Shown here: piece by piece, positions 8,908 to 29,452 of the stretch
How the letters are laid out: each line of letters starts with the position of its first letter
Numbering within the stretch: position 1 is the first letter of the stretch
Source of the DNA: Candidatus Saccharimonadota bacterium
Lineage (GTDB): Bacteria > Pseudomonadota > Gammaproteobacteria > Johnevansiales > Johnevansiaceae
Length of the DNA: 32,000 bases
Assembly: GCF_902713755.1 (NCBI RefSeq)
Contig: NZ_LR744089.1
Reading direction: 5' to 3' (one strand)
Notes under the pieces: model-generated
Databases searched by the model: none
What the model saw: only the letters and a program-made list of their open reading frames with translations
Told to the model about the DNA's origin: nothing
Made by a program: the position numbers and the translations under genes

Positions 8908-11586
8908 ATGAAATATAATCCAAATCAAATTGAAAATTATTGGTATAAAAAATGGGAAAAAAATAAAAAATTTATTTCTAATAATTCAGTTATACCGTTT
9001 TCAATTATGATTCCTCCTCCTAATGTTAATGGAAAATTACATATTGGTCATGCTTTTGAATATACATTAATAGATACAATAATACGTTATAAACGTATGC
9101 AAGGTTATAATACATTATTGCAATTTGGTACTGATCATGCGGGGATAGCTACACAAATTCTAATTGATAATAATCTTGCTAATGATAAAATATCTCGTAT
9201 TTATTTGGGAAGAAAATTATTTATAAAAAAAACATTAAAATGGTGTAAGAAAACTATACCTAAAATTATTTTACAAATGAAACGTATGGGTATTAGTGTT
9301 GATTGGAAAAAAGAACGATTTACTATGGATTATGGTTTTTATCAAGCAGTACAAGAAGCTTTTATTAAATTATATAAAGAAGGATTAATTTATAGAGGAA
9401 AAAGATTAATTAATTGGGATCCAAAATTATTTACAGCTATATCTGATATAGAAGTTGAAAGTATTGAATCCAAGGGTATATTATGGTATATCCGTTATCC
9501 TTTATTAAATAATATTGATGGTAAAAAGTATTTAATAGTTGCTACTACACGTCCAGAAACTATTCTTGCAGACACTTGTATTGCTGTTAATCCTCAAGAT
9601 AAGCGGTATAAAAATTTAATAGGTAAATGTGTTAAATCTCCATTATTAGGTCGTATATTGCCAATTATATCAGATGAAGTTGTTGATAAAAATTTTGGCA
9701 CAGGTTGTGTTAAAATTACACCAGCGCATAATTTTCTTGATTATAAAATTGGTAAACGTAATAATAGTCTATTAATAAATATATTTACTAATAATTTTAA
9801 AGTTCGTAAAAAAGCAGAATTATGTAAGTTTAAATCAGGTAAAATTTTAAATTATAATTTTATTAAAATACCAAAATCATATATTGGTATGTCTATAAAA
9901 TTATTGCGTAAAAATATAGTTAAGGATTTATTAAAAAATAATTTTTTAGAAAAAAAAATAGATAATTATATATTAATGTTACCTTGTGGTGATCGTTCAG
10001 GGGCAATTATTGAACCTTTACTTACAGATCAATGGTTTGTTTCTATTAAAAAATTAGCTAAATTGGCTATAAATGCAGTAAAAAACGGTAATATAAATTT
10101 TATACCAAAAACTTATGAAAAAATATATATAAATTGGATGTATAATATTAAAGATTGGTGTGTTTCTCGTCAATTATGGTGGGGACATAGAATACCAGCT
10201 TGGTTTGATGATAATAATAATATTTTTGTTGGACGTAATGAAGAAGAAATAAGAAATAAATATTCTATAAAAACTAAATTATATCAAGATAATGATGTTT
10301 TAGATACTTGGTTTAGTTCAGGATTATGGACTTTCACTACTATTGGTTGGCCTCAAAATACATATTTTTTTAATTACTTTCATCCATCTAGTGTTTTAAT
10401 TACTGGTTTTGATATTATTCCTTTTTGGGTATCTCGTATGATAATGATGACACTTAAATTTATTAATGAAATACCTTTTAAAAAAGTCTACATACATGGT
10501 TTGATTAGAGATCAAAATGGACAAAAAATGTCTAAATCTAAAGGTAATGTTATAGATCCTATTGAATTAATAGATGGTAGTGAAACAAATAATTATGGTG
10601 CTGATGTTTTAAGATATACATTTTTATCTATATCTTTACCAGGTAAAGATATAAACTTTGATCTAGGAAGATTAAAGTGTTATAGAAATTTTTGTAATAA
10701 GTTATGGAATGCCACAAAATATGTTATATCTAAAGCAGTAATTTATTATAATAATGATTATAAAAAATTTTTTTATTGGGAAAATTTAAATTCAATCAAT
10801 AGATTTATTATTTCAATTTTACAAACAACTAAAAAAAAACTTTCTAATTATTTAGAAGAATATCGGTTGGATTTAGCATCTCAAATTATTTATGAATTTG
10901 TATGGTATGAATTTTGTGATTGGTATTTAGAATTTTCTAAAATAATTTTAAATAGTAAATATATATTATTTAAATTTAGTACAATAAATACATTAATATA
11001 TGTATTAAAAGAAATTTTATTATTATTAAATCCTATAATTCCTTTTATTACTGAAGAATTATGGAAAAATATAATGTTATTACAATATAAAAATAAAAAA
11101 ACAATGATAAGTAACCAATATTGGCCTAATATAGATAAAAATAAATTTGATGAAGACGCTATATATGATATAGAATTTATAAAAAAAATTATTATAAATA
11201 TACGTTATATGCGTGCATCAATGAATATTGATAACTTGAAAATAATAAAAATTTTTTGTTCTAAAGTAAAAATTTTTTATAAAGAATTATTAAAAAAATA
11301 TAATTATTATATATGCAAATTAGCTAATATTAAAATAATAAATTATTATGAACCAAATATTCCTTGTGTATCAAAAAATATTGAAAATATTATGATAATA
11401 CATATACCAATAATAAAATATTATGATTTTAAATTTATTATCGAAGAATTGAAAAAACAAAAAAAATTAATTAAAATTTTAGAAATTAAATTAAAAAATA
11501 AAAATTTTATTAATAAAGCTCCTAAATCTGTAATAACAAAAAATAAAATAAAACTAAAAAAAGCAAAAGATTTATTGATAAAATAA
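8908..11586 (+). CDS. valS: Valine--tRNA ligase
   Basis: Class I aaRS with the HIGH-type box PPPNVNGKLHIGHA, KMSKSKGN and a C-terminal coiled-coil. I place the start at ATG 8908 (MKYNPNQIENYWYKKW...), preceded by GGAG at 8896-8899. The track start at 8848 adds 20 non-conserved codons. Confidence 0.93.
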   Translation: MKYNPNQIENYWYKKWEKNKKFISNNSVIPFSIMIPPPNVNGKLHIGHAFEYTLIDTIIRYKRMQGYNTLLQFGTDHAGIATQILIDNNLANDKISRIYLGRKLFIKKTLKWCKKTIPKIILQMKRMGISVDWKKERFTMDYGFYQAVQEAFIKLYKEGLIYRGKRLINWDPKLFTAISDIEVESIESKGILWYIRYPLLNNIDGKKYLIVATTRPETILADTCIAVNPQDKRYKNLIGKCVKSPLLGRILPIISDEVVDKNFGTGCVKITPAHNFLDYKIGKRNNSLLINIFTNNFKVRKKAELCKFKSGKILNYNFIKIPKSYIGMSIKLLRKNIVKDLLKNNFLEKKIDNYILMLPCGDRSGAIIEPLLTDQWFVSIKKLAKLAINAVKNGNINFIPKTYEKIYINWMYNIKDWCVSRQLWWGHRIPAWFDDNNNIFVGRNEEEIRNKYSIKTKLYQDNDVLDTWFSSGLWTFTTIGWPQNTYFFNYFHPSSVLITGFDIIPFWVSRMIMMTLKFINEIPFKKVYIHGLIRDQNGQKMSKSKGNVIDPIELIDGSETNNYGADVLRYTFLSISLPGKDINFDLGRLKCYRNFCNKLWNATKYVISKAVIYYNNDYKKFFYWENLNSINRFIISILQTTKKKLSNYLEEYRLDLASQIIYEFVWYEFCDWYLEFSKIILNSKYILFKFSTINTLIYVLKEILLLLNPIIPFITEELWKNIMLLQYKNKKTMISNQYWPNIDKNKFDEDAIYDIEFIKKIIINIRYMRASMNIDNLKIIKIFCSKVKIFYKELLKKYNYYICKLANIKIINYYEPNIPCVSKNIENIMIIHIPIIKYYDFKFIIEELKKQKKLIKILEIKLKNKNFINKAPKSVITKNKIKLKKAKDLLIK

Positions 11587-11825
11587 TGTCTATTATAAAT
11601 AAAAATCATATGGATATAGGTAAGTGGTCGGTTATATTTTTTGCTGATTTTAGTTTTGTATGTCCAACTGAACTTGTAGATTTATCTGAAAATTCTTCTA
11701 AAACTTTACACATAAAGCATGGCTTGATAGTTCTAAAATTAAATAAATATATTAATAAAAATCCAGATGATGTTTGTCCAGCAAAAACTTTAAAACCTAA
11801 TATAGATTTAGTAGGTAAAGTTTAG
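11586..11825 (+). pseudogene. ahpC: Collapsed alkyl hydroperoxide reductase C (2-Cys peroxiredoxin) remnant, an intact 79-codon ORF
   Basis: MSIIN...GKWSVIFFADFSFVCPTELVDLSE...NPDDVCPAKTLKPNIDLVGKV matches the N-terminal, peroxidatic-Cys (FVCPTEL) and resolving-Cys/C-terminal (EVCPAKW...LDLVGKI) segments of the ~187-aa AhpC as I recall it. More than 100 internal residues are missing. The ATG overlaps the valS TAA (TAATG). Confidence 0.7.
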
Positions 11826-14600: not shown

Positions 14601-17182
14601 ACAATTATTTTTCTTACATAGATATTGAACGAGAAGCCCAGACGTTTTGGGAAGATAACAAATGTTTTGAAATAGTAGAAGATATTAATAAGGAAAAATT
14701 TTATTGTTTATGCATGTTTCCATATCCTAGCGGTAATCTACATATTGGGCATGTACGTAATTATACAATAGGAGATGTAATATCTCGTTTACAACGTATG
14801 CTAGGTAAAAATGTATTAAATCCTATTGGTTGGGATGCTTTTGGTATGCCTGCAGAAAATGCTGCAAAAAAAAATATTGTTTCTCCTAATAAATGGACAT
14901 ATACTAATATTGAATATATGCGGAAACAACTAAAAAATTTAGGTTTTTCTTATAATTGGGATAGAGAAATAACAACATGTAATTTACATTACTATCGGTG
15001 GGAACAATGGTTTTTTATTAAATTGATAGACCATGGTTTAATATATAAAACTAATGCAAGTGTTAATTGGGATCCGTTAGATAATACTATTTTGGCGAAT
15101 GAACAAGTAATAAATGGTATTGGATGGCGTTCTGGGGCAAAAGTAGAACGTAGAAAAATTCCAATATGGTTTTTTAAAATTACAGAATATGCGGCAGAAC
15201 TTTTGAAATGTTTAGAAAATATTGATTGGCCCGAGTCTGTAAAAAAAATGCAAATAAATTGGATTGGTAAATCTAAAGGAATAGAAATTTTTTTCAAAGT
15301 TATGGCTTCTGTTCCTAACTTTTTATCTAAATTAAAAGTTTTTACAACACGCCCAGATACCCTATTAGGAGTTACTTATATAATATTAGCACCTGATCAT
15401 CCTTTAGTTGAATTAGCTGCACAATCTAATAAAAAATTAAATAAATTTTGTAATAATTTTCGTATAGGTGGTAATTCTTCATTAGAATTATTAAATAAGG
15501 AAAAAATTGGATTATATATAGGATATAAAGTATTACATCCAATTACCAATGAATATTTACCAATATATGTTTCTAATTTTATAATTATGGAATATGGGAC
15601 AGGGGCTATAATGGGTGTTCCAGCTCACGATAATAGAGATTGGGAATTTGCAATTAATTATGGATTACCAATAAAACCTGTAATTTCAGACAATAATGGT
15701 AATATACCTGATATTTCTAAAAAAGCATATACTGAATATGGATTACTTATAAATTCAGGTATATTTAATAAATTAAATTTTTTTGAAGCTTTTGATTCTA
15801 TTAATAAATATATAAAAAAAATAAATTGTGGTGTTATTAAAACTTTATTTAGATTGCGTGATTGGTGTATTTCTAGGCAAAGATATTGGGGCACTCCTAT
15901 TCCTATTAAATACGGTACCGAAGGACAAACAGTCCCCCTTACTGATAAAGAATTACCTATTTATTTACCTACTGATGTAATTTTTAATAGTAAATTTAAT
16001 TTAAAAAAATTAACATCATTTTACGATTTAGGAAATGGATGGGTTCGTGATACGGATACTTTTGATACTTTTATAGAATCATCTTGGTATTACGCACGTT
16101 TTTGTTGTAATGATAATAAACAATCAATTCTTGATGCAAGGGTAAACTATTGGTTACCAGTTGATATGTATATAGGTGGGATTGAACATGCTATTTTGCA
16201 TTTATTATATGCTAGGTTTTTCCATAAATTAATGCGTGATTTTGGCTTATTTGAATGTGATGAACCTTTCAAAAAATTAATTACTCAAGGTATGGTTGTT
16301 ACACCTACCTACTATAGAGAAATACATGGTAAAAAAGAATGGTTTAATCCTTTAGATGTTAAGTTAAATAAAGATAAAAACACCGGTCAATTTATAGCAA
16401 CTTTAACTACCGATGGTGCTACTGTTATAAGTAGCGGTATTGAAAAAATGTCTAAGTCTAAAAATAACGGTATTGATCCTAAAGTTCTAATTGATAAATT
16501 TGGTGCTGATACTTTACGTTTATTCATTATGTTTTCCGCACCTACTGAACAATCACTTATTTGGTCAGAAACTGGAATTAGAGGTGCTAACCGATTTATT
16601 AAACGTTTATGGAATATAGGGAATATACATATATCTAAATATTATTCAGAAAATAATAAAATAAAAATATCATCATTAACACCTGAACAATTTATTTTAT
16701 ATCGAAAAACCCATAAAACAATAAAAAAAGCTACTGAAGATATGATTATACGGCATACATTTAATACTGTAATAGCTAAAGTAATGAAATTAACTAACTT
16801 AGTATCACGTTTTATTGATTATAGTATCAAAGGATTAGCTGTAACTAGGGAAGCATTGAAATCTATTATACTAATATTGGCCCCTATTGTCCCGCACATT
16901 ACCCATATTTTATGGAAAAAAATGGGATACTCATATGCTATTATTGATGCAAAATGGCCAACTTTTAATGAAGAATGCTTAGTAGGAAAATTAATTACCG
17001 TTTTAGTACAAATAAATGGAAAATTACGTAAAATATTAAAATTACCTATTAATTATGGTACTAAAAAATTTGCAAGCGCTATTTTATCCTCTAAACAGAT
17101 TAAATGTTACATAATAGGGAAAAACATTAATAAAATTATTATCGTACCAGGAAAATTAATTAATATAGTAGTTTATGAGTAG
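14597..17182 (+). CDS. leuS: Leucine--tRNA ligase
   Basis: 861 aa with PYPSGNLHIGHVRNY (HIGH), KMSKSKNNG and a CP1 editing-domain region. The stop TAG (17180-17182) lies in the first unit of the 11-bp array. Confidence 0.97.
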   Translation: MNNYFSYIDIEREAQTFWEDNKCFEIVEDINKEKFYCLCMFPYPSGNLHIGHVRNYTIGDVISRLQRMLGKNVLNPIGWDAFGMPAENAAKKNIVSPNKWTYTNIEYMRKQLKNLGFSYNWDREITTCNLHYYRWEQWFFIKLIDHGLIYKTNASVNWDPLDNTILANEQVINGIGWRSGAKVERRKIPIWFFKITEYAAELLKCLENIDWPESVKKMQINWIGKSKGIEIFFKVMASVPNFLSKLKVFTTRPDTLLGVTYIILAPDHPLVELAAQSNKKLNKFCNNFRIGGNSSLELLNKEKIGLYIGYKVLHPITNEYLPIYVSNFIIMEYGTGAIMGVPAHDNRDWEFAINYGLPIKPVISDNNGNIPDISKKAYTEYGLLINSGIFNKLNFFEAFDSINKYIKKINCGVIKTLFRLRDWCISRQRYWGTPIPIKYGTEGQTVPLTDKELPIYLPTDVIFNSKFNLKKLTSFYDLGNGWVRDTDTFDTFIESSWYYARFCCNDNKQSILDARVNYWLPVDMYIGGIEHAILHLLYARFFHKLMRDFGLFECDEPFKKLITQGMVVTPTYYREIHGKKEWFNPLDVKLNKDKNTGQFIATLTTDGATVISSGIEKMSKSKNNGIDPKVLIDKFGADTLRLFIMFSAPTEQSLIWSETGIRGANRFIKRLWNIGNIHISKYYSENNKIKISSLTPEQFILYRKTHKTIKKATEDMIIRHTFNTVIAKVMKLTNLVSRFIDYSIKGLAVTREALKSIILILAPIVPHITHILWKKMGYSYAIIDAKWPTFNEECLVGKLITVLVQINGKLRKILKLPINYGTKKFASAILSSKQIKCYIIGKNINKIIIVPGKLINIVVYE

Positions 17183-17222
17183 CTTATGAGTAGCTTATGA
17201 GTAGCTTATGAGTAGCTTATGA
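17174..17222. repeat. Tandem repeat, 11-bp unit TATGAGTAGCT x4 plus partial TATGA
   Basis: The copies at 17174-17217 are perfect. The first contains the leuS stop and the last partial copy contains the holA ATG (17219). Each unit carries ATG..TGA. Confidence 0.97.
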
Positions 17223-18125: not shown

Positions 18126-18169
18126 CTCTAATCTCTCTCTAATCTCTCTCTAATCTCTCTCTAATCTAA
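18126..18169. repeat. Tandem repeat, 11-bp unit CTCTCTCTAAT x3, flanked by partial CTCTAAT and CTAA
   Basis: Perfect copies at 18133-18143, 18144-18154 and 18155-18165. The array fills the convergent holA/lpdA spacer. The trailing partial unit supplies the lpdA stop (CTA = TAG, 18166-18168). Confidence 0.95.
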
Positions 18170-19581
18170 ACCTTATGAATAGTAGTACCTGATGATGTAG
18201 CACAAGCTGCTTCGTGTATCGCTTCTGAAAGGGTAGGATGAGCAAAACATGTTAATGCCAAATCCTCTGCACTGGAACTAAATTCCATTGCAATAACACC
18301 CTGAGCAATTAATTCACTAGCATTTTGTCCCATTATATGTACACCCAAAATTTTATCATTTACATCTGCAATTATTTTAACCATTCCTTGTATTGCGTTA
18401 TTTGTCATAGCTCTACCGCAATTAGCAAACGGAAAAATACCTACTTTATAGTTAATACCTGCTGATTTAAGCTGCTGTTCATTTTTACCCACCCAAGCTA
18501 TTTCTGGTATTGTATAAATAACCCATGGAATAGTATCATAATTTAACTGTACATTGTTACCAGCAATAATTTCAGCTACCATAATACCTTCTTGAGCCGC
18601 TTTATGTGCTAACATAGGACCCCTAACAACGTCTCCTACAGCATAAATTCCTGATACACTTGTTTTACATTGATTGTCAACTTTGATAAATCCTTTATCA
18701 TCAATTTCTATCCCGCTATCTAGTTCTAGTAGCTTATGTGTATAAGGTATCCTACCTATACAAACTATCAACTTATCAAAAGTTAAGCTATGCTCACCAA
18801 ATTGATCCATAAAATTAACTTTAACTTCTTTATTTTTAATTTCGATACCCATAATACGCACATTGAATTTAATATTTAACCCTTGTTTTGTTAAGATTTT
18901 TGATATTTCTTTAGCTAAAGTTTCATCCACAACTGGAAATAATTTATCTAACGCTTCCAATATAGTAACTTGGCTACATAGCCTACTCCAAACTGAACCT
19001 AATTCTATCCCAATAATACCTGCTCCTATTATACCTAAACGATTAGGTACCTCCTGTAAACTTAATGCAGCTGCGGAGTCTATTATTGTATCTCCATTTA
19101 ATGGTACCTGCTTAATGCTACTAGGAATAGATCCTGAAGCAATAATAATATTATTAGCTTTTAAAATACTCTTTTTTTTATTATGAGACACTTCTACTTT
19201 TTTTTCATTTAAAATCTTACCAGTTCCTTTCAATACTATAACCCCATTAGCTCTAAACAAAGCATCAATTCCATCAATTAAACTATAAACAATTTTATTT
19301 TTATGCCTGATCATATTTTTAATATCGATACTAATTTTATCAATCTTAATACCTAATTCTTCGAATTTATCCCTAGCCTCAATAAACTTATGTGATATTT
19401 CTAATAATGTTTTTGAAGGTATACACCCAACATTTAAACAAGTACCCCCATAAATCATTCTTCCATCTTTAATCCATTTTTCAACACAAGCAGTTTTTAG
19501 TCCTAATTGCGCCGCTCTTATAGCTGCAACGTAACCAGCTGGACCAGCACCTATAACAATTACATCAAAATTAGCTTCCAT
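18166..19581 (-). CDS. lpdA: Dihydrolipoyl dehydrogenase (E3)
   Basis: 471 aa with GAGPAGYVAAIRAAQLG (FAD), the redox disulfide GGTCLNVGCIPSK, GAGIIGIELG (NAD) and a C-terminal HAHPTLSE. Confidence 0.97.
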   Translation of the reverse strand: MEANFDVIVIGAGPAGYVAAIRAAQLGLKTACVEKWIKDGRMIYGGTCLNVGCIPSKTLLEISHKFIEARDKFEELGIKIDKISIDIKNMIRHKNKIVYSLIDGIDALFRANGVIVLKGTGKILNEKKVEVSHNKKKSILKANNIIIASGSIPSSIKQVPLNGDTIIDSAAALSLQEVPNRLGIIGAGIIGIELGSVWSRLCSQVTILEALDKLFPVVDETLAKEISKILTKQGLNIKFNVRIMGIEIKNKEVKVNFMDQFGEHSLTFDKLIVCIGRIPYTHKLLELDSGIEIDDKGFIKVDNQCKTSVSGIYAVGDVVRGPMLAHKAAQEGIMVAEIIAGNNVQLNYDTIPWVIYTIPEIAWVGKNEQQLKSAGINYKVGIFPFANCGRAMTNNAIQGMVKIIADVNDKILGVHIMGQNASELIAQGVIAMEFSSSAEDLALTCFAHPTLSEAIHEAACATSSGTTIHKV

Positions 19582-19601: not shown

Positions 19602-20825
19602 TTAAATATTTAATATAAACCGAATAGGGTTTTCTAAAAGCTCCTTAACTAAATTTAAAAATTTTACTGCATCAACACCATCAAGGATACGATGATCATA
19701 AGACAACGCTAAATACATCATCGGACGTATAACTATTTCTCCATTTAAAACTACTGGACGTTTTTGAATTTTATGCATTCCCAGAATAGCTGTTTGAGGC
19801 GGGTTAATAATAGGAGTAGAAAAAAGAGATCCAAATACCCCTCCATTGCTTATAGTAAAAGTTCCACCAGTAATTTCTTTAATACTTAATTTTCCATTAA
19901 TACCACGTTGCCTGAAATCCATAATTAATTTCTCTATATCTACTATTTCCATAGAATCAGTATTTCTTAATATTGGAACAACTAAACCCCTATTTGTAGA
20001 AACTGCTATTCCAATATCTTGATAATTATGATAAACAATTTCTTTAGCATCAGCATCAATAAAGGCATTAACTTTATTATTTTTTTTTAGCGCTATAGTA
20101 CAAGCTTTTACAAAAAAACCCATTAATCCTAGCTTATTACCATGTATTTCTTTAAATAGCTCTCTATATTGTACGCGTATCTCTATTATATTACTCATAT
20201 CTACTTCATTATAAGTAGTTAACATTGCAGCCTTTTTTTGCGCTTTTACTATACGATTAGCTATTGTCTGACGTAACAGACTCATTGGTACCCTTTTTTC
20301 TCCGACTTCATTACGTTGAACATCTTCTTTTAGTATACAAGTACCAATAATGGTATTAGCAGTATTTGTTGATGGTGTTGATGGTGTTGATGGTGTTGAT
20401 GGTGTTGATGGTGTTGATGGTGTTGATGGTGTTGATGGTGTTGATGGTGTTGATGGTGTTGATGCTGAAGATGCTGAAGATGCTGAAGATGCTGAAGATG
20501 CTGAAGATGCTGAAGATGCTGAAGATGCTGAAGATGCTGAAGATGCTGAAGATGCTGAAGATGCTGAAATATCTTCTTCTCTATCTCCTACAACAATAAT
20601 ACCTAGCAATTGCTCTGATTTGCATGTCTTACCTGCTGGTATCTTTATATCTTTAAGAATCCCTACCGCTGGTGACACCACCTCTAGCAATACTTTATCA
20701 GTTTCTACTTCAACAATAATTTCATATCGTAAAATTTTATCCCCAGGTTTTTTATGCCAAGTAGCAACTGTACCTTCATTTACCGATTCAGGAAAGCTAG
20801 GAGCTTTTATATCTATATATTTAAT
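19602..20825 (-). CDS. sucB: Dihydrolipoyllysine-residue succinyltransferase (E2o), with a proposed ATT start
   Basis: The track ORF starts at TTG 20690, just after the lipoyl-Lys motif. The frame is open upstream to TAA 20873-20871 and encodes (I)[44 protein letters not shown]. This is the lipoyl domain (recalled E. coli [29 protein letters not shown]...IETDKV). No ATG, GTG or TTG is available. ATT 20825-20823 lies 8 nt after AAGGA (20838-20834). The catalytic core contains SYDHRILDG. Confidence 0.85.
20371..20460. repeat. Perfect tandem array GATGGTGTT x10 (9-bp unit), read as (TPS)n on the sucB strand
   Basis: 90 bp with no mismatch, in frame inside sucB. Confidence 0.98.
20461..20568. 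repeat. Perfect tandem array GATGCTGAA x12 (9-bp unit), read as (SAS)n on the sucB strand
   Basis: 108 bp with no mismatch, directly abutting the first array and in frame inside sucB. Confidence 0.98.
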
Positions 20826-20845
20826 CTTAATTATCCTTTTTATTA

Positions 20846-23449
20846 TTAAAGAAAGGCTTCTTTTATTAAATTAGCCTGCTGTTTCATATGTACATCAATA
20901 TAACCAGCTGCTGGTGCTGCGGCTGCAGTACGACCTACAAACTTTAGCTTAACAATCTTATTTAAATAGTACTTAATTTGATACCAAGCTCCTTGATTTT
21001 TAGGTTCTTCTTGACACCATATAATATGTTCACACTTAGAGTAAATAGATAATTTTTCTATAATACTTTTTTCAGGAAAAGGATAAAGCTGTTCTATTCG
21101 TAAAATAGCAGTATCATTAATATTATTTGCTTTACGATAAGCAAATAAATCGTAATATACTTTACCTGATGTAAGTATAATTCTTTTTACTATATCTGGA
21201 TCAATCTTCTCCGTTTCCCCAATAACCGTTTTAAAACTTCCATAAGATAAATCTTCAAAACTAGACTTAGCATATTTATGCCGCAATAAACTTTTTGGTT
21301 GCATCAATATTAATGGTTTACGTAATTTACGTTTTACCTGACTACGTATTAAATGAAATAGTTGTGAAGGATTTGTAGGAAGACATACTTGCATATTTTG
21401 TTCAGCACATAACTGAATAAATCGTTCAATACGTGCAGAAGAATGCTCTGGACCTTGACCTTCATAACCATGAGGTAGTAATAAAGTTAGACCGCATAAA
21501 CTTCCCCACTTAGTTTCACCAGAAGATATAAATTGATCAATCACTACCTGAGCTCCATTAGCAAAGTCTCCAAACTGAGCTTCCCAAGCTACGAACATAT
21601 TTTGTGATGTAGTAGAATAACCATATTCAAAAGCAAGCACAGCTTCTTCTGAAAGAATAGTATTTACTATAGTAAACTTAGGTTGCCCTTTTTTTATATG
21701 TTGCATAGGTGTCCATACTGATCCATCTTTCTGATTGTGTATTGCTGCATGCCGATGAGAGAAAGTTCCTCTTCTTGTATCTTGACCTGTTATACGAATG
21801 GCATAGCCTTCATCTAATAAAGTAGCATAGGACAACATCTCCGCAAAACCCCAATTTATATTCATCCCACTACTATTTACCATTTTACGACGATCTTCGT
21901 AAATTTTAGAAACTTTACTTTGAACTTCGATTCTACCCAACTTGCACATTTTTCCCGCTAATTCCTGCATACGCTTCATTTCAAATGAGGTATCATCATA
22001 CTCATTATCATAATATTTATACATAATAACACTTACAATTGATTTTTTATATGACTTTTTAGCATTATTTTTAACCTCATTCTTTGATATTAAACCTTGT
22101 TTTAATAAATATTTTGAATAAATTTCCCGTGTAGTTGGATGATTTTTTATTTTTTTATACATAATTGGTTGTGTTATTGATGGTGAATCTGACTCATGAT
22201 GACCTCTACGACGGTAACATATCATATCAATTAACACATCTTTTTTGAATTTATTCCTATAATCAACTGATAATTGGGTTACATATTGAACAGCTTCTGG
22301 ATCATCTCCATTTACATGGAAAACAGGATATTGAAACATTTTTGCAATATCACTACAATATTTAGTAGATCGTGCATTGTGTCTATAAGTAGTAAAACCT
22401 ATCTGATTATTAATTATAATATGTAAAGTACCCCCCGTATTATATTCCTTTATTTTTGACATTTGTAATGTTTCCATTACCACACCTTGTCCAGAAAATG
22501 CTGTATCCCCATGTATAACAATAGGTAATACTTTTGTCATAGTCATATCATTAATATAATCTTGTCTCGCACGAACCGCTCCTTCTATTACTGGATAAAT
22601 AATTTCTAGATGTGATGGATTAAATGCTAATTTTAAATACACACCACCACCTTTTGTCATTATTTTTGAACTAAAACCATGATGATATTTAACATCACCA
22701 GAACCTGATTCATATATTTGTTTTCCTTCAAATTCATTAATTATATCTGATGGGCTCTTACCCAAAATATTAACTAATACATTTATACGTCCTCTGTGAG
22801 CCATACCCATAAAAATTTCTTTAATACCATAATTACCAGAACGTTGAATTAATTCATATAACATAGGAATTAAAGTTTCTCCACCCTCTATACCAAAACG
22901 TTTAGTACCAGGATATTTACTAGATAAATAATTTTCTAATCCTTCAGCTGCAGTAAGTAATTCTAGAATATGCAAACTTATTTTTTTTGTTGTTGAGTAT
23001 TTGTTACGTACAGATTCAAAACTTTGCTCTAACCACACTTTTTCTTCATTATTAATAAGATGCATAAATTCACATCCTATGGATCTACAGTAAGTCATAT
23101 CCAAAACGTCAATAATTTCTTTTAATGTTGCTTTATTTTTACCAACTCCAGTATAAAAGACTTTATTTATATCTTCTTTATTCAATTCGTATAATGACAA
23201 TTGAAGCGCATTAACAGTAGTCTTACCACTTATTGGGTCTATATTTGCCTTTATATGCCCCATATAACGATAAGCGTTAATAAGTTGCAAAACGCTCATT
23301 TGTTTTTTTATATTTTCTTTTGTTTGAACAATGCATTCTTTGTTACTAATATAGTCAAAATATTGCCGCCATTCTTCAGTAACCTTACCTTTATGGTATT
23401 GTTCGTATATTTCTTCTAAATAACTAACATTATCTAATGCTATTTGCAT
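20846..23449 (-). CDS. sucA: 2-oxoglutarate dehydrogenase E1 component
   Basis: 867 aa. The ThDP-enzyme signature regions ([45 protein letters not shown]) are colinear with SucA. It lies upstream of sucB-lpdA. Confidence 0.96.
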
Positions 23450-23464
23450 ATTTGTTTTGATACC

Positions 23465-23483
23465 TTATTTAGTTTATTTAGTT
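23465..23483. repeat. 9-bp tandem duplication TTATTTAGT x2 spanning the gltX stop codon
   Basis: The minus strand reads ACT AAA TAA ACT AAA TAA. The last two codons plus the stop of gltX are repeated once, immediately downstream and in frame. Confidence 0.85.
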
Positions 23484-24886
23484 AGTTTGATATCTTCTAT
23501 TCCTCCTAATATATTTATTGCCTGCTTTATACGTATACGAGTTATATCTTTACCAATAATTACTATAGTATCAATTACCGATGTAGAAATTAATCTTCCA
23601 TTTATTGCAATAAAAATTGGAGCTATTATTGTTTTCATTTTTATTTTAAAATGGTTAGATAATTGTTTAACCTTATATAGTATAGTTGCCTTGTCCCATT
23701 TTTCTATATATTCTAACTGCAACCATAAAAATTTAAGTACTTTAATTTGCATTGTGTTTTTCAAAGCAATAACTTTAAAATCTTCCGCTTTTAATTTAGG
23801 TAATACAGAAAAAAAATGTTCAGATAAAGGAATAATATCAGTTAAAATTTTTATACGAGGTTTAATTGATGGTAAAATCTTATATATATAGTCTTTAGAC
23901 CATTCATACATAACCTTAATTAAAGTTTTATCTTCCATTGAGCGTATATAAATACCATTTAACCAAGTCAATTTGTCTAAATCAAATATTGGACCTCCTA
24001 AAGATATACTCTTAATATCAAATTTAGATTGCATATTTTCTATAGAAATACCACCAATACTACCTAAGTACTTGATTATTGTTTGGGGTAAATAACCCAT
24101 TTTACGATAATATTCAATTGAATTATTTTGTTTGCGCTTAGATAGTTTTGATCTATCTGGATTACGTAACAATGGTAAGTGACAAAAATTTGGAATTTTC
24201 CAGCCTAAATATTCATAAATCAACTTATGTTTTGGAGTAGAATTTATCCAATCTTCACCCCTTATTACATTAGTAATCCCCATCAAATAATCGTCTACTA
24301 CATTAGCTAAATGATAAGTAGGTGTTCCGTCAGATTTTATTAAAATTTGTGAATCAACCTGATCCCAATTCATTTTAATACTACCCCTTAATACATCATA
24401 AAATACGCATATTCCTTCATTAGGAACCTTAAGCCGTATTACATAAGGCCAATTGTTTTTTTTACGAAATTTTAATTCTTTATAATCTAACTGTAAATCT
24501 TTTTCTTTTAATGCTTTATCAAACTTTAATTTGCGCAATTTATATAATTCTTCACAAGTACGATAACATTTAAATACCTTACCTGAATTAATTAATTTCT
24601 CAACATATTTATTATAAATACTATTACGTTCGCTTTGACGATAAGGTCCGAAATTTCCTCCTATATCCGGTCCTTCATCCCATTGAATGCCTAACCAATG
24701 TAATAATTCTAAAATTTTTTTTTCAAATTTACTTTTTGATCGCAATCTATCTGTATCTTCAATACGAAGAATTAATTTTCCATTATTAATACGAGCAAAA
24801 TAAAAATTTAATAAAGCAATATAGGCTGTACCTATATGCGGTTCTCCTGTAGGAGAAGGTGCAATACGTGTGCGAATATTCTGCAT
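23474..24886 (-). CDS. gltX: Glutamate--tRNA ligase
   Basis: 470 aa with RIAPSPTGEPHIGTAY (HIGH-type), KLSKR (KMSKS-type) and YHLANVVDD. Confidence 0.95.
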   Translation of the reverse strand: MQNIRTRIAPSPTGEPHIGTAYIALLNFYFARINNGKLILRIEDTDRLRSKSKFEKKILELLHWLGIQWDEGPDIGGNFGPYRQSERNSIYNKYVEKLINSGKVFKCYRTCEELYKLRKLKFDKALKEKDLQLDYKELKFRKKNNWPYVIRLKVPNEGICVFYDVLRGSIKMNWDQVDSQILIKSDGTPTYHLANVVDDYLMGITNVIRGEDWINSTPKHKLIYEYLGWKIPNFCHLPLLRNPDRSKLSKRKQNNSIEYYRKMGYLPQTIIKYLGSIGGISIENMQSKFDIKSISLGGPIFDLDKLTWLNGIYIRSMEDKTLIKVMYEWSKDYIYKILPSIKPRIKILTDIIPLSEHFFSVLPKLKAEDFKVIALKNTMQIKVLKFLWLQLEYIEKWDKATILYKVKQLSNHFKIKMKTIIAPIFIAINGRLISTSVIDTIVIIGKDITRIRIKQAINILGGIEDIKLTK

Positions 24887-26205: not shown

Positions 26206-26269
26206 TTTATACCTTTATACCTTTATACCTTTATACCTTTATACCTTTATACCTTTATACCTTTATACT
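26206..26269. repeat. Tandem repeat, 8-bp unit TTTATACC x7 plus a variant TTTATACT
   Basis: The array occupies the entire spacer between the 5S rRNA 3' end and the deaD ATG (26205-26203). The minus strand reads (A/G)GTATAAA x8 followed by ATG, so each unit is both SD-like (AAGG) and -10-like (TATAAA). Confidence 0.97.
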
Positions 26270-26389
26270 AGCCTGACGATAACCTACTCTCACATAAGGA
26301 GAACCTCATACTACCATTGGCGTTAGGTGATTTAACTTCTGAGTTCGGAATGTTATCAGGTTGGTCCCACCAACTATAATCGTCAAGCT
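26270..26389 (-). rRNA. rrf: 5S ribosomal RNA
   Basis: The reverse complement reads GCTTGACGATTATAGTTGGTGGGACCAACCTGATAACATTCCGAACTCAGAAGTTAAATCACCTAACGCCAATGGTAGT...GAGAGTAGGTTATCGTCAGGC. It has the conserved CCGAACTCAGAAGT and GAGAGTAGG boxes and a terminal helix I (GCTTGACGAT/ATCGTCAGGC). Ends are accurate to about 2 nt. Confidence 0.95.
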
Positions 26390-29280: not shown

Positions 29281-29289
<9 letters not shown>

Positions 29290-29375
29290 CTATTTATCAC
29301 TATTTACTACTATTTACTACTATTTACTACTATTTACTACTATTTACTACATATTACTACATATTACTACATATT
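29281..29375. repeat. 10-bp-period tandem array in the tRNA-Ile/23S spacer, running into the 23S 5' end
   Basis: The minus strand, 5' to 3', reads GTAGTAATAT x2 (plus a partial unit), GTAGTAAATA x5, GTGATAAATA x1, then GTGATAAAGC, which is the 23S 5' terminus. Similarity to the 23S end falls off with distance from it. Confidence 0.93.
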
Positions 29376-29379
29376 TTTT

Positions 29380-29452
29380 TGGGTCTGGGCAGAATTGAAC
29401 TACCGACCTCACCCTTATCAGGAGTGCGCTCTTCCATCTGAGCTACAGACCC
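29380..29452 (-). tRNA. tRNA-Ile (anticodon GAT), no encoded CCA
   Basis: The reverse complement GGGTCTGTAGCTCAGATGGAAGAGCGCACTCCTGATAAGGGTGAGGTCGGTAGTTCAATTCTGCCCAGACCCA folds as a cloverleaf. It has a 7-bp acceptor stem, GCTC/GAGC D stem, CACTC/GGGTG anticodon stem, CTGATAA loop and GGTAG/CTGCC T stem. It closely resembles the E. coli rrn-spacer tRNA-Ile. Confidence 0.95.

What the first reader, a model, noticed from the sequence alone, without database searches (positions are those of the whole stretch)
20371..20568. Two abutting perfect 9-bp arrays form the SucB linker and seem to replace most of the E3-binding domain
Seen: the plus strand has GATGGTGTT x10 followed directly by GATGCTGAA x12, 198 bp with no mismatch. 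On the coding strand this reads (SAS)12 then (TPS)10, 66 aa in all. It lies between the lipoyl domain (lipoyl-Lys motif ETDKV encoded at about 20705-20691) and the acyltransferase core (SYDHRILDG). The 9-bp unit preserves the frame. Established: E2 inter-domain linkers are flexible Ala/Pro/Ser/Thr-rich segments, so the array is compositionally a linker. Inference: against my recalled E. coli SucB, only the tail of the peripheral-subunit (E3)-binding domain is recognisable ([10 protein letters not shown] vs GGRLTREDVE). The first helix (SPAIRRLL-type) is absent, even though the E3 gene lpdA follows directly. Copies with zero divergence imply recent or ongoing slippage. Arm length is therefore probably polymorphic, giving a natural length series of a swinging arm in an essential-looking enzyme.
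Basis: partly seen in the sequence, partly recalled or inferred. Interest (0 to 1): 0.7.

Follow-up and report, generated by a model that had tools for sequence, protein, structure and literature searches.

The report
Repeat array overwrote SucB's E3-docking domain
In the whitefly endosymbiont Portiera (host Pealius mori), two perfect in-frame 9-bp repeat arrays have replaced most of the small domain that normally docks the E3 enzyme onto the core (E2) subunit of 2-oxoglutarate dehydrogenase. Sister lineages lost or eroded the same domain independently, much as mitochondria did.

Summary
Window 20371-20568 holds GATGGTGTT x10 followed directly by GATGCTGAA x12, with no mismatch. It is in frame in minus-strand sucB and encodes (SAS)12(TPS)10.

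The window comes from Candidatus Portiera aleyrodidarum PeMo (LR744089). Contigs from two independent read sets end inside each array edge. The arrays are therefore real, but the copy numbers 10 and 12 rest on one short-read assembly.

Codon alignment with close relatives that keep a full E3-binding domain (PSBD) shows three lesions in the window:
- helix 1 was overwritten by the arrays;
- six codons were deleted;
- the GKGG loop was deleted.

No E3_binding hit appears at E<=10, and the remnant matches no solved PSBD.

The lipoyl and catalytic domains, sucA and lpdA are intact and under purifying selection.

Aleurodicus Portiera replaced the whole PSBD with a (KEISSN)n array, and that state is at least about 18 Myr old. 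The Bemisia-clade PSBD has eroded. Trialeurodes keeps the PSBD but carries a different array, with 4 copies in one assembly and 8 in the other.

A perfect array is therefore not necessarily a young one. Polymorphism of this particular array is plausible but has not been shown.

Verdict: a real feature and a new variant of known kinds, of moderate interest.

The parts
20461..20568 (-). Array A: 12 perfect copies of a 9-bp unit (plus strand GATGCTGAA; coding TCA GCA TCT). It encodes (SAS)12 and lies directly after ...EEDI at the end of the lipoyl domain.
   Evidence: the array edge is seen independently in Logan contig L083
20371..20460 (-). Array B: 10 perfect copies of a 9-bp unit (plus strand GATGGTGTT; coding TCA ACA CCA). 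It encodes (TPS)10. The unit is 6/9 identical to the array A unit.
   Evidence: the array edge is seen independently in Logan contig L084
20310..20369 (-). Remnant of the peripheral-subunit (E3)-binding domain: [20 protein letters not shown]. Helix 1 is gone, six codons (NSIDVK-type) are deleted, the GKGG loop is deleted, and the conserved Arg is Cys. Only helix 2 (LKEDVQR) is recognisable.
   Evidence: codon alignment with L001 and L002; no PF02817 hit; no PDB PSBD hit, against 38 hits for the Trialeurodes segment
20595..20813 (-). Lipoyl domain (Biotin_lipoyl). The lipoyl-lysine motif ETDKV is at 20705-20691.
   Evidence: 56.4 bits, profile 2-73 of 73; dN/dS 0.22 against Trialeurodes Portiera
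19614..20300 (-). Succinyltransferase catalytic core (2-oxoacid_dh), with SYDHRILDG.
   Evidence: 270 bits; E. coli E2o core 1C4T/1E2O/1SCZ, 4.7e-84; dN/dS 0.39 against Trialeurodes Portiera
19602..20825 (-). sucB coding sequence: 407 codons plus stop, with a probable ATT start 8 nt after AAGGA. No canonical start codon lies upstream of the lipoyl domain.
   Evidence: (TIGR01347 483.7 bits against a cutoff of 378.65). The same non-ATG N-terminus IKYI[D/E]IKAP is found in the other Portiera lineages translated.
20846..23449 (-). sucA (E1o), 867 aa, intact.
   Evidence: (exact match to CAA3705562.1)
18166..19581 (-). lpdA (E3), 471 aa, intact, 20 nt downstream of sucB.

Best explanation
**Shown**
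- The window is from Candidatus Portiera aleyrodidarum PeMo, the obligate endosymbiont of the mulberry whitefly Pealius mori.
- Its sucB gene (E2o of 2-oxoglutarate dehydrogenase) carries two abutting in-frame 9-bp arrays. They sit at the position where close relatives encode the start of the E3-binding domain (S-P-S-A-R-K-M-M...).
- The arrays, a 6-codon deletion and a 4-codon deletion (GKGG) leave only helix 2 of that domain.
- The lipoyl domain, catalytic core, sucA and lpdA are intact and evolve under purifying selection.
- The same domain was lost completely in Aleurodicus Portiera, where an 18-bp (KEISSN)n array replaces it. It has eroded beyond detection in the Bemisia clade. It is retained in Trialeurodes, which carries a different 24-bp array next to it.

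**Inferred**
- The arrays arose by replication slippage. The likely seed is the TCA-CCA-TCG-GCA motif at the domain boundary. The looped-out units are 9 bp, which from my own knowledge is too long for MutS-type mismatch repair.
- They persist because their unit length is a multiple of three and the region tolerates any flexible sequence.
- The product works as a two-domain E2o: lipoyl domain, then a tether of about 98 residues rich in Ser/Ala/Thr/Pro, then the core.
- E3 no longer docks through a PSBD. The reduced lipoyl group would be reoxidised by untethered E3 or by E3 recruited some other way.
- The enzyme probably still supplies succinyl-CoA for the succinylase branch of lysine synthesis, plus NADH.
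- Copy number probably drifts by continuing slippage.
For: **Identity of the source genome**
- Ten window proteins match records of the 277,700-bp Portiera genome exactly.
- Table 1 of PMC7821994 assigns that genome size to PeMo, LR744089.

**Arrays and frame**
- Searches show the arrays and their reading frame.

**Loss of the PSBD**
- There is no PF02817 hit at E<=10. The same model gives 45.2, 39.0, 20.8, none and none for the TV, L001, SiSi, BT and AD-CAI sequences.
- One search gives the residue-by-residue lesions.
- PDB control: 38 PSBD hits for the Trialeurodes segment and 0 for the window remnant.
- The AlphaFold2 model has no helix 1 and pLDDT of 30-45 across residues 89-183.
- According to the literature read here, helix 1 carries the E3-recruiting charges (PMC9974300).

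**The gene is still functional**
- TIGR01347 scores 483.7 bits, above its cutoff.
- dN/dS against Trialeurodes Portiera is 0.22 (lipoyl) and 0.39 (catalytic). The published lineage-wide omega for PeMo is 0.231.
- sucA and lpdA are intact in all seven lineages checked: six by tblastn and AF-CAI by its gene calls.
- The PSBD-less Aleurodicus gene has stayed open in two species that split about 18 Ma, with catalytic dN/dS of 0.21.

**Frame selection**
- The four sucB arrays have units of 9, 9, 18 and 24 bp.
- The other arrays in this window have units of 8, 10, 11 and 11 bp. All of them sit between genes or at gene ends.

**Ongoing slippage**
- The 11-bp arrays at 17167 and 18126 are 33 and 22 bp shorter in a sample that is about 99.4% identical. 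A 35-bp duplication differs at 23484.
- Trialeurodes Portiera has (LKEDVQRS) x4 in one assembly and x8 in another that is almost identical.
- The Aleurodicus array has 9.3 copies in one species and 11.3 in the other.

**Need for succinyl-CoA**
- The window encodes an acetylornithine/succinyldiaminopimelate transaminase.
- Lysine is reported to be made within Portiera.
Against: - No experiment or docking calculation shows that E3 binding is lost. Helix 2 (LKEDVQR) is retained in every lineage except Aleurodicus, which may mean some residual function.
- The AlphaFold2 control (Trialeurodes SucB) also had pLDDT below 50 across its genuine PSBD. The confidence values therefore do not discriminate.
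- Copy numbers come from one short-read assembly of pooled insects. Polymorphism of this array could not be measured because independent contigs break at it.
- The gene has no canonical start codon.
- SucB of PeMo was not found among 5.8 billion proteins. This is not informative, because SucB of AF-CAI, which is a called gene on its record, is missing from those lists too.
- The seed motif proposed for the arrays is a plausible reading, not a demonstrated history.
Confidence: 0.75

Rival explanations
1. sucB of PeMo is a decaying gene or pseudogene. The array and the deletions are early lesions of a gene no longer needed, and the open frame is residual.
For: There is no ATG, GTG or TTG start before the lipoyl domain. 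The PSBD is destroyed by at least three separate lesions. Catalytic-domain dN/dS of 0.39 is somewhat above the lineage-wide omega of 0.231. PeMo is reported to have three pseudogenes, which are not named in the text I could read. sucA of PeMo also carries a private 11-aa deletion.
Against: A frame of 407-414 codons stays open in a genome of about 24% GC. The equivalog model scores above its cutoff. dN/dS is well below 1. The same non-canonical start context occurs in the other Portiera lineages translated, including genes annotated as functional. All sucB arrays have units that are multiples of 3, unlike the intergenic arrays in the same window. The PSBD-less Aleurodicus orthologue has stayed open and constrained for about 18 Myr.
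Confidence: 0.08
2. The remnant ([13 protein letters not shown]), perhaps together with the new Ser/Thr/Pro tract, still docks E3. E3 tethering would then be retained in a minimal form.
For: Helix 2, LKEDVQR, is conserved almost unchanged in PeMo, Trialeurodes, L001 and SiSi, and is even the unit amplified in Trialeurodes. This suggests constraint on that segment.
Against: According to the literature read here, E3 recruitment runs through charged side chains of helix 1, and helix 1 is the part that is missing. The conserved loop Arg is Cys and GKGG is deleted. There is no Pfam or PDB similarity. Aleurodicus lacks helix 2 as well and keeps the gene.
Confidence: 0.1
3. The arrays are real, but their lengths (10 and 12 copies) or their direct abutment are products of short-read assembly. 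The true locus would be longer, shorter or heterogeneous within the pooled sample.
For: The genome comes from NovaSeq reads (trimmed to a minimum length of 98) of 50 pooled abdomens, assembled with SPAdes. The 198-bp perfect repeat probably exceeds the read length, which the text I read does not state (my inference). Independent k-mer assemblies all break at the arrays.
Against: Each sub-array (90 and 108 bp) could be spanned on its own by a read of about 150 nt, anchored in unique sequence on one side and in the other array on the other. The assembly was closed and polished. Both outer edges are confirmed independently.
Confidence: 0.25
4. The expansions are selected, not merely tolerated. 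After Portiera lost the ancestral Ala/Pro linkers, in-frame repeat growth restored the reach of the swinging arm. This adds to the best explanation and does not exclude it.
For: The inter-domain length is 98 residues in PeMo, against a median of 97.5 (range 87-107, n=22) in free-living single-lipoyl relatives. BT has 96, P0161 has 96 and Trialeurodes TV-BCN has 103. Every Portiera lineage except L001 carries its own lineage-specific insertion or array in this segment. All lineages aligned lack the second linker.
Against: Lengths range from 48 (L001) to 103, and Trialeurodes has either 71 or 103. An unconstrained segment in a slippage-prone genome would show the same pattern. There is no functional data.
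Confidence: 0.25

Closest known systems
Bacterial SucB (E2o), e.g. E. coli: lipoyl domain, PSBD and catalytic core (PDB 1PMR, 1BAL/1W4H/2CYU, 1E2O/1SCZ)
   Same: The lipoyl domain and catalytic core are clearly homologous. The inter-domain spacing is about the same.
   Different: The PSBD is not present as a domain. Helix 1 and the loop are gone. The single long tether is a perfect Ser/Ala/Thr/Pro minisatellite instead of two Ala/Pro linkers flanking a folded PSBD.
Eukaryotic (mitochondrial) E2o/DLST, which lacks a PSBD and recruits E3 through the adaptor MRPS36/KGD4 (PMC9974300)
   Same: The PSBD position is occupied by an unstructured tract rich in small residues and proline, while the lipoyl and core domains are kept. 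The paper describes the PSBD as preserved across prokaryotic E2o, so Portiera is a bacterial exception with the eukaryote-like layout.
   Different: No adaptor is known or was searched for here. The loss is recent, lineage-specific and repeated within one genus. The replacing tract is a tandem repeat.
Tandem repeats in Portiera genomes (Sloan and Moran 2013, PMC3673631; Santos-Garcia et al. 2020, PMC7821994)
   Same: It is the same genome and the same class of feature. The 2020 paper counts 31 tandem repeats in PeMo, 24 of them overlapping coding genes, and 10 in Trialeurodes.
   Different: Those papers give counts and discuss genome stability. sucB does not occur in their main text, nor in the one 2020 supplementary file held as text. 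The 2013 paper was not searched for sucB. Only two papers in the searchable library contain both 'Portiera' and 'sucB'; the one listed is about planthopper symbionts. I did not find the domain replacement or the cross-lineage pattern described.
Aleurodicus Portiera SucB (AD-CAI, AF-CAI) with a (KEISSN)n array
   Same: An in-frame perfect array sits between the lipoyl domain and the core, and there is no PSBD. sucA and lpdA are intact.
   Different: The unit is 18 bp and unrelated in sequence. The PSBD is lost completely, helix 2 included. The array is shared by two species and is therefore at least about 18 Myr old.
Coding minisatellites and contingency-type repeats in bacterial genes
   Same: There are perfect head-to-tail copies, and a slippage origin is likely. 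Copy number varies between closely related genomes at sister arrays.
   Different: The unit is a multiple of three, so changes alter length and not frame. There is no on/off switching and no sign of a role in variation of surface structures.

Membership tests
SucB / E2o of 2-oxoglutarate dehydrogenase (TIGR01347) | Full-length match to the equivalog model above its curated cutoff | tested here: met
   483.7 bits against a cutoff of 378.65; NF004309 scores 481.4 against 449
SucB / E2o of 2-oxoglutarate dehydrogenase (TIGR01347) | N-terminal lipoyl domain with the lipoyl-lysine (DK) motif | tested here: met
   PF00364 scores 56.4 bits over residues 7-79; ETDKV is present
SucB / E2o of 2-oxoglutarate dehydrogenase (TIGR01347) | C-terminal acyltransferase core with the DHRxxDG active-site motif | tested here: met
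   PF00198 scores 270 bits; SYDHRILDG is present
SucB / E2o of 2-oxoglutarate dehydrogenase (TIGR01347) | Peripheral-subunit (E3)-binding domain between the lipoyl domain and the core, as in bacterial E2o | tested here: not met
   There is no PF02817 hit at E<=10. Codon alignment shows helix 1 and the loop removed.
SucB / E2o of 2-oxoglutarate dehydrogenase (TIGR01347) | Gene context sucA-sucB(-lpd) | tested here: met
   sucA lies at 20846-23449, sucB at 19602-20825 and lpdA at 18166-19581, all on the minus strand. The order is the same in every Portiera locus fetched.
PSBD / E3_binding domain (PF02817) | Helix 1 (xPxxRRLAxExxxD type) with the basic residues that contact E3 | tested here: not met
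   SPSARKMMANNSIDVKA of the relatives is replaced by (SAS)12(TPS)10TNTANT. The role of helix 1 is taken from PMC9974300.
PSBD / E3_binding domain (PF02817) | Loop GTGxxGRI | tested here: not met
   The window has IIGT-CI: GKGG is deleted and Arg is Cys
PSBD / E3_binding domain (PF02817) | Helix 2 (TKEDV type) | tested here: met
   LKEDVQR is retained
PSBD / E3_binding domain (PF02817) | Detectable sequence similarity to the family model or to solved PSBDs | tested here: not met
   Pfam gives no hit. PDB gives 0 hits at E<=10 for the remnant, against 38 hits for the Trialeurodes segment.
PSBD / E3_binding domain (PF02817) | Binds the E3 dimer | not testable with these tools
   This needs a binding assay or a multimer prediction
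Flexible E2 inter-domain linker | Composition rich in Ala, Pro, Ser and Thr | tested here: met
   Of the 98 inter-domain residues, 34 are Ser, 14 Thr, 13 Ala and 10 Pro
Flexible E2 inter-domain linker | No stable fold | tested here: inconclusive
   pLDDT is 30-45 with no secondary structure over residues 89-183. However, the Trialeurodes control also had pLDDT below 50 over a genuine PSBD.
Slippage-generated coding minisatellite | Perfect head-to-tail copies whose unit length is a multiple of three | tested here: met
   Units of 9 bp, x10 and x12, with 100% matches
Slippage-generated coding minisatellite | Copy-number polymorphism of this array among individuals or strains | not testable with these tools
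   Independent contigs break at the array. There is no hit in the metagenome contigs.
Eukaryote-type PSBD-less E2o with an E3 adaptor (MRPS36/KGD4) | PSBD replaced by an unstructured tract while the lipoyl domain and core are kept | tested here: met
   compared with the description
Eukaryote-type PSBD-less E2o with an E3 adaptor (MRPS36/KGD4) | A separate adaptor protein that bridges the E2o core and E3 | not tested
   No candidate was looked for. The paper reports no prokaryotic orthologues of MRPS36.

The most novel reading that the evidence does not exclude
Portiera would be a bacterial replay of what happened to mitochondrial E2o. Within one endosymbiont genus the E3-docking domain of 2-oxoglutarate dehydrogenase was discarded at least three times independently (Pealius, Aleurodicus and Bemisia clades), and the complex still works. 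In-frame minisatellite growth rebuilt the swinging-arm tether to about the ancestral length. On this reading, E3 is recruited by another route (E1o, the E2 core, or a host-supplied factor) or acts untethered. The lineages would then offer a natural series of arm lengths and PSBD states in an otherwise almost unchanged enzyme.
Probability: 0.3. Interest if true: 0.65.

Novelty: new variant of a known kind. Interest (0 to 1): 0.5.

Why it matters
The PSBD is regarded as the universal way in which bacterial E2 cores hold E3. A recent survey states that it is preserved across prokaryotic E2o and absent only in eukaryotes, where an adaptor protein took over (PMC9974300).

Here a bacterial lineage on the same evolutionary path as organelles shows the domain in four states side by side:
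- intact (Trialeurodes, L001);
- weakened (Singhiella);
- eroded (Bemisia clade);
- overwritten by repeats (Pealius) or completely replaced (Aleurodicus).

The rest of the enzyme barely changes across these lineages.

This gives a natural test of whether E3 tethering, and a particular arm length, are needed for 2-oxoglutarate dehydrogenase to work. It also shows how slippage in a tiny genome can remodel an enzyme's architecture without breaking it.

In practical terms, annotation pipelines may mis-call such genes because of the non-ATG start and the low-complexity core. Short-read assemblies break at these arrays or may mis-size them.

Tried and rejected
1. **AlphaFold2 as a test for a folded PSBD.** The window model is disordered over residues 89-183. 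The Trialeurodes control also had pLDDT below 50 over its genuine PSBD with this 30-sequence alignment. I therefore use only the presence or absence of helix 1, not the confidence values.

2. **Measuring copy number in independent data.** Logan contigs from ERR13328207 and ERR13328202 stop inside the arrays. A scan of the JGI metagenome contigs for the junction between the two arrays found nothing.

3. **Exact look-up of window LpdA.** No record was found, probably because the annotated start differs. sucA and nine other proteins did match.

4. **Inferring pseudogene status from a database absence.** I first read the absence of PeMo and AD-CAI SucB from the 5.8-billion-protein search as a sign that they are annotated as pseudogenes. 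I withdrew this because AF-CAI SucB, a called 381-aa gene on its record, is absent from those lists too.

5. **The antisense plus-strand ORF at 20350-20874 (174 aa).** I rejected it as a gene. Its length is produced by the stop-free arrays. Relatives without arrays have only 74-121 open codons on the antisense strand, and array-bearing AD-CAI has 167.

6. **Whether Portiera AceF keeps its PSBD.** I could not retrieve that protein with the tools and caps available.

7. **Literature.** The Portiera papers I searched for sucB do not mention it, and a library-wide search for 'Portiera' plus 'sucB' found only two papers.
Full report
**1. The observation**

The plus strand reads GATGGTGTT x10 at 20371-20460, followed directly by GATGCTGAA x12 at 20461-20568, with no mismatch. 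Tandem Repeats Finder gives 100% matches and scores of 196 and 216. These are the two strongest arrays in the window.

On the minus strand the arrays are in frame within one long open frame. It reads ...[12 protein letters not shown](SAS)12(TPS)10[30 protein letters not shown].... ETDKV is encoded at 20705-20691 and SYDHRILDG is present.

The frame has no ATG, GTG or TTG before TTG 20690.

**2. Source**

Ten window proteins match records of a 277,700-bp Candidatus Portiera aleyrodidarum genome exactly. Table 1 of PMC7821994 assigns that size to strain PeMo from the mulberry whitefly Pealius mori, accession LR744089.

That genome was assembled with SPAdes from NovaSeq reads of 50 pooled abdomens. 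The paper counts 31 tandem repeats in PeMo, 24 of which overlap coding genes. sucB does not occur in its main text or in its one supplementary file held as text. The other Portiera papers I searched for sucB do not mention it either, and a library-wide search for 'Portiera' plus 'sucB' returned only two papers.

**3. Are the arrays real?**

Two Logan assemblies from other read sets are about 99.4% identical to the window.
- ERR13328207 (L083) ends ...GAAGATATT TCAGCATCT TCAGCATCT TCAGCATCTTC.
- ERR13328202 (L084) ends ...TTTGT TGATGGTGT TGATGGTGT TGATGGTGT.

Both outer array edges therefore exist in independent data. These k-mer assemblies break at the arrays, so they say nothing about copy number or about whether the two arrays abut. 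The counts of 10 and 12 rest on one short-read assembly. Each sub-array (90 and 108 bp) could be spanned by a read of about 150 nt, but I could not check this.

**4. What the gene is**

- The product matches the SucB equivalog TIGR01347 at 483.7 bits, against a cutoff of 378.65.
- Pfam finds Biotin_lipoyl (residues 7-79) and 2-oxoacid_dh (178-406). It finds no E3_binding domain even at E<=10.
- sucA (20846-23449) lies upstream and lpdA (18166-19581) lies 20 nt downstream. Both are intact.

**5. What was replaced**

I fetched sucB loci from seven other Portiera lineages or assemblies.

| Lineage | Locus or protein |
|---|---|
| Trialeurodes TV | L002 |
| Trialeurodes TV-BCN | P0019 |
| Unnamed Logan relative | L001 |
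| Aleurodicus dispersus AD-CAI | L003 |
| A. floccissimus AF-CAI | L088 |
| Singhiella SiSi | L004 |
| Bemisia BT-B | L008 |
| Bemisia-like clade | L085/L086 |

The closest relatives, L001 and L002, read as follows:

...GAA GAT ATT TCA CCA TCG GCA CGC AAA ATG ATG GCT AAT AAT AGT ATA GAT GTT AAA GCA ATT ATT GGT ACT GGA AAA GGG GGA CGT ATA CTA AAA GAA GAT GTT CAA...

This encodes ED-I-SPSARKMMANNSIDVKAIIGTGKGGRILKEDVQ, a complete PSBD.

The window reads:

...GAA GAT ATT (TCA GCA TCT)n (TCA ACA CCA)n TCA ACA AAT ACT GCT AAT ACC ATT ATT GGT ACT TGT ATA CTA AAA GAA GAT GTT CAA...

Compared with the relatives, the window shows these changes:
- The helix 1 codons are overwritten by the arrays.
- Six further codons are deleted.
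- The four GKGG codons are deleted.
- The loop Arg is Cys, a change shared with L001 and SiSi.

Only helix 2 survives.

Controls agree with this reading:
- The Trialeurodes PSBD segment matches 38 solved PSBD sequences. These include E. coli E2o (1W4H, 1BAL, 2CYU; E about 1e-7) and 1EBD chain C.
- The corresponding 40 residues of the window match nothing at E<=10.
- PMC9974300 states that E3 is recruited through the charged side chains of helix 1.

**6. The genus-wide pattern**

| Source | Pfam E3_binding score |
|---|---|
| Cobetia (free-living) | 49.6 bits |
| Trialeurodes | 45.2 bits |
| L001 | 39.0 bits |
| SiSi | 20.8 bits (below the 23.7 cutoff) |
| BT | none |
| AD-CAI | none |
| PeMo (window) | none |

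- AD-CAI has no PSBD at all. Its lipoyl domain is joined to the core by (AAA GAA ATA TMT TCT AAT) x9.3, which encodes (KEI[Y/S]SN)n.
- AF-CAI has the same unit x11.3, perfect.
- The two Aleurodicus symbionts are 97.4-97.8% identical in the flanks. Their split is dated at 18.35 Ma, with a 95% interval of 12.3-24.9.
- Their sucB has stayed open with a catalytic-domain dN/dS of 0.21. sucA and lpdA are intact next to it.
- Trialeurodes keeps the PSBD but has amplified the 24-bp unit that encodes LKEDVQRS. One assembly has 4 copies and the other has 8, and the two assemblies are described as almost 100% identical.

Trialeurodes, L001 and the free-living outgroup all keep the domain, and the lesions differ between lineages. 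I therefore infer, by parsimony, that the losses in the Pealius, Aleurodicus and Bemisia lineages were independent.

**7. Is the gene still in use?**

- dN/dS for PeMo against Trialeurodes is 0.22 (lipoyl) and 0.39 (catalytic), with dS of only 0.07-0.08. The published lineage-wide omega for PeMo is 0.231.
- The non-ATG N-terminus IKYI[D/E][10 protein letters not shown] is shared by the other Portiera lineages translated. It is therefore a trait of the genus and not a lesion.
- All four sucB arrays have units that are multiples of three: 9, 9, 18 and 24 bp.
- The other strong arrays in this window have units of 11, 11, 8 and 10 bp, and all lie outside coding frames:
  - at the leuS stop / holA start junction (17167-17222);
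  - between the 3' ends of holA and lpdA (18126-18167);
  - between 5S rRNA and the DEAD-box helicase gene (26206-26268);
  - between a tRNA and 23S rRNA (29289-29376).

This contrast is what selection for an open frame would produce.

As for a likely role (inference), the window encodes an acetylornithine/succinyldiaminopimelate transaminase, and lysine is reported to be made inside Portiera. Succinyl-CoA from this enzyme is therefore probably needed.

**8. Age and dynamics**

- At the published PeMo synonymous rate of 8.25e-10 per site per year, 198 neutral bp expect one substitution per about 6 Myr. A perfect array could therefore be millions of years old.
- The Aleurodicus array shows that an array can be at least about 18 Myr old and still be nearly perfect while its copy number changes.
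- The PeMo array must post-date the split from the Trialeurodes and L001 lineages, which lack it.

Ongoing slippage in the PeMo lineage is supported indirectly. Against the 99.4%-identical Logan sample:
- the 11-bp array at 17167 is 33 bp shorter;
- the 11-bp array at 18126 is 22 bp shorter;
- a duplication of about 35 bp differs at 23484.

Those Logan contigs run through the shorter arrays but break at the long ones. I infer from this that the short versions are real and not collapsed.

Trialeurodes Portiera keeps mutS and mutL. From my own knowledge, loops of 9 bp and longer are not substrates for MutS-type repair.

**9. Tether length**

I measured the inter-domain segment from the residue after LLGII to EKRV.

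| Source | Length (residues) |
|---|---|
| 22 free-living single-lipoyl relatives | median 97.5 (range 87-107) |
| PeMo | 98 |
| BT | 96 |
| P0161 | 96 |
| Trialeurodes TV-BCN | 103 |
| Trialeurodes TV | 71 |
| SiSi | 81 |
| L001 | 48 |

All Portiera sequences aligned lack the second Ala/Pro linker, the one between the PSBD and the core. Every lineage except L001 carries its own insertion or array. This hints that arm length is being restored. The spread from 48 to 103 is equally what an unconstrained, slippage-prone segment would give.

**10. Structure prediction**

- The window SucB model has confident lipoyl and core domains. Residues 89-183 have pLDDT of 30-45 and no helices.
- The Trialeurodes control shows helix 1 (92-101) and a long helix 2 that runs through the LKEDVQRS repeats (120-148). 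It also has pLDDT below 50 there.

The confidence values therefore do not discriminate. Only the absence of helix 1 in the window model is informative.

**11. Comparison with what is known**

The enzyme is a member of the SucB family, but without the PSBD that is typical of bacterial E2o. The nearest architectural parallel is eukaryotic E2o. There the PSBD is absent, an unstructured Ala/Pro tract takes its place, and MRPS36 recruits E3. The same paper describes the PSBD as preserved across prokaryotic E2o.

Whether Portiera uses an adaptor, another contact, or free E3 is unknown. Portiera also has aceE, so E3 probably also serves a pyruvate dehydrogenase complex. Retention of lpdA does not by itself show that OGDH still uses it.

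**12. Verdict**

Two points need correcting. A perfect array is not evidence of youth, and polymorphism of this particular array is untested.

What I add is the comparative picture: repeated, independent loss or erosion of the E2o PSBD within one endosymbiont genus, with a different in-frame repeat array in the same segment in three lineages.

This is a new variant of known kinds (coding minisatellite; PSBD-less E2o). It is of moderate interest and can be tested with simple experiments.

Noticed in passing
window 17167-17222: A perfect 11-bp array (AGTAGCTTATG x5.1) lies exactly at the leuS stop / holA start junction. Each unit carries a TAG and an ATG. The array is 33 bp shorter (about 2.1 copies) in the 99.4%-identical Logan sample ERR13328202 (L084).
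   Followed up: partly
window 18126-18167: A perfect 11-bp array (CTCTAATCTCT x3.8) fills the gap between the convergent 3' ends of holA and lpdA. It is 22 bp shorter in L084.
   Followed up: partly
window 26206-26268: A perfect 8-bp array (TTTATACC x7.9) fills the space between 5S rRNA (26271-26387) and the start of the DEAD-box helicase gene (26205). Logan contig L083 begins inside it.
   Followed up: partly
window 29289-29376: An imperfect 10-bp array (ACTATTTACT x8.7, 91% matches) lies in the rRNA operon spacer between the tRNA (29380-29452) and the 5' end of 23S rRNA (29288).
   Followed up: no
window 23465-23490: Logan sample ERR13328207 (L083) has about 35 extra bases here, a tandem duplication TAACTAAATAAACTAAATAAGGTATCAAAA. 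The site is where the start of sucA meets the 3' end of gltX. It is a length polymorphism that cannot be an assembly collapse.
   Followed up: partly
window 20810-20846 (sucB 5' end): sucB has no ATG, GTG or TTG start upstream of the lipoyl domain, here or in the other Portiera lineages translated. Public annotations use ATT or ATA starts (for example, AF-CAI begins at IKY). An AAGGA motif lies 8 nt before ATT 20825. The gene starts within about 20 nt of the sucA stop, so translational coupling is possible.
   Followed up: partly
window about 22030 (sucA, near residue 473): PeMo SucA lacks 11 residues (MVYLYRHNLDY-type) that are present in all five other Portiera lineages aligned. AD-CAI SucA has a small tandem duplication (KVNQFN) near its N-terminus. 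In-frame indels seem common in this operon.
   Followed up: no
L002 6001-7155 and P0019 (Trialeurodes Portiera sucB): The 24-bp unit encoding LKEDVQRS (PSBD helix 2) is repeated 4 times in CP004358 and 8 times in the TV-BCN protein. AlphaFold2 draws the repeats as one long helix continuing helix 2, at low confidence.
   Followed up: partly
L087 1-30 (Logan SRR25685069): This is a PeMo-like lineage, 96% identical in the catalytic domain and sharing DGVDAVKF. Its contig starts TAA GTC GGA GAA AAA AGG GTA ACA ATG, which puts an in-frame TAA where PeMo has GAA. This is either a truncated sucB or a contig-end effect next to another array.
   Followed up: no
window 20350-20874 plus strand: A 174-aa antisense ORF runs through the arrays, (DGV)10(DAE)12. 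It exists only because the arrays contain no stop codons. Relatives without arrays have 74-121 open codons there.
   Followed up: yes
window 11580-11634: This is a dense cluster of mismatches and small indels against L084, at the 3' end of valS and the following spacer. The rest of the 11-kb alignment differs at only scattered single bases.
   Followed up: no
alignment A1 (all Portiera SucB sequences aligned): All Portiera sequences aligned lack the second Ala/Pro linker, between the PSBD and the catalytic core, that free-living relatives have. Helix 2 abuts EVGEKRV directly. BT and the P0161 clade instead carry a non-repetitive insertion of about 50 residues before the PSBD remnant.
   Followed up: partly
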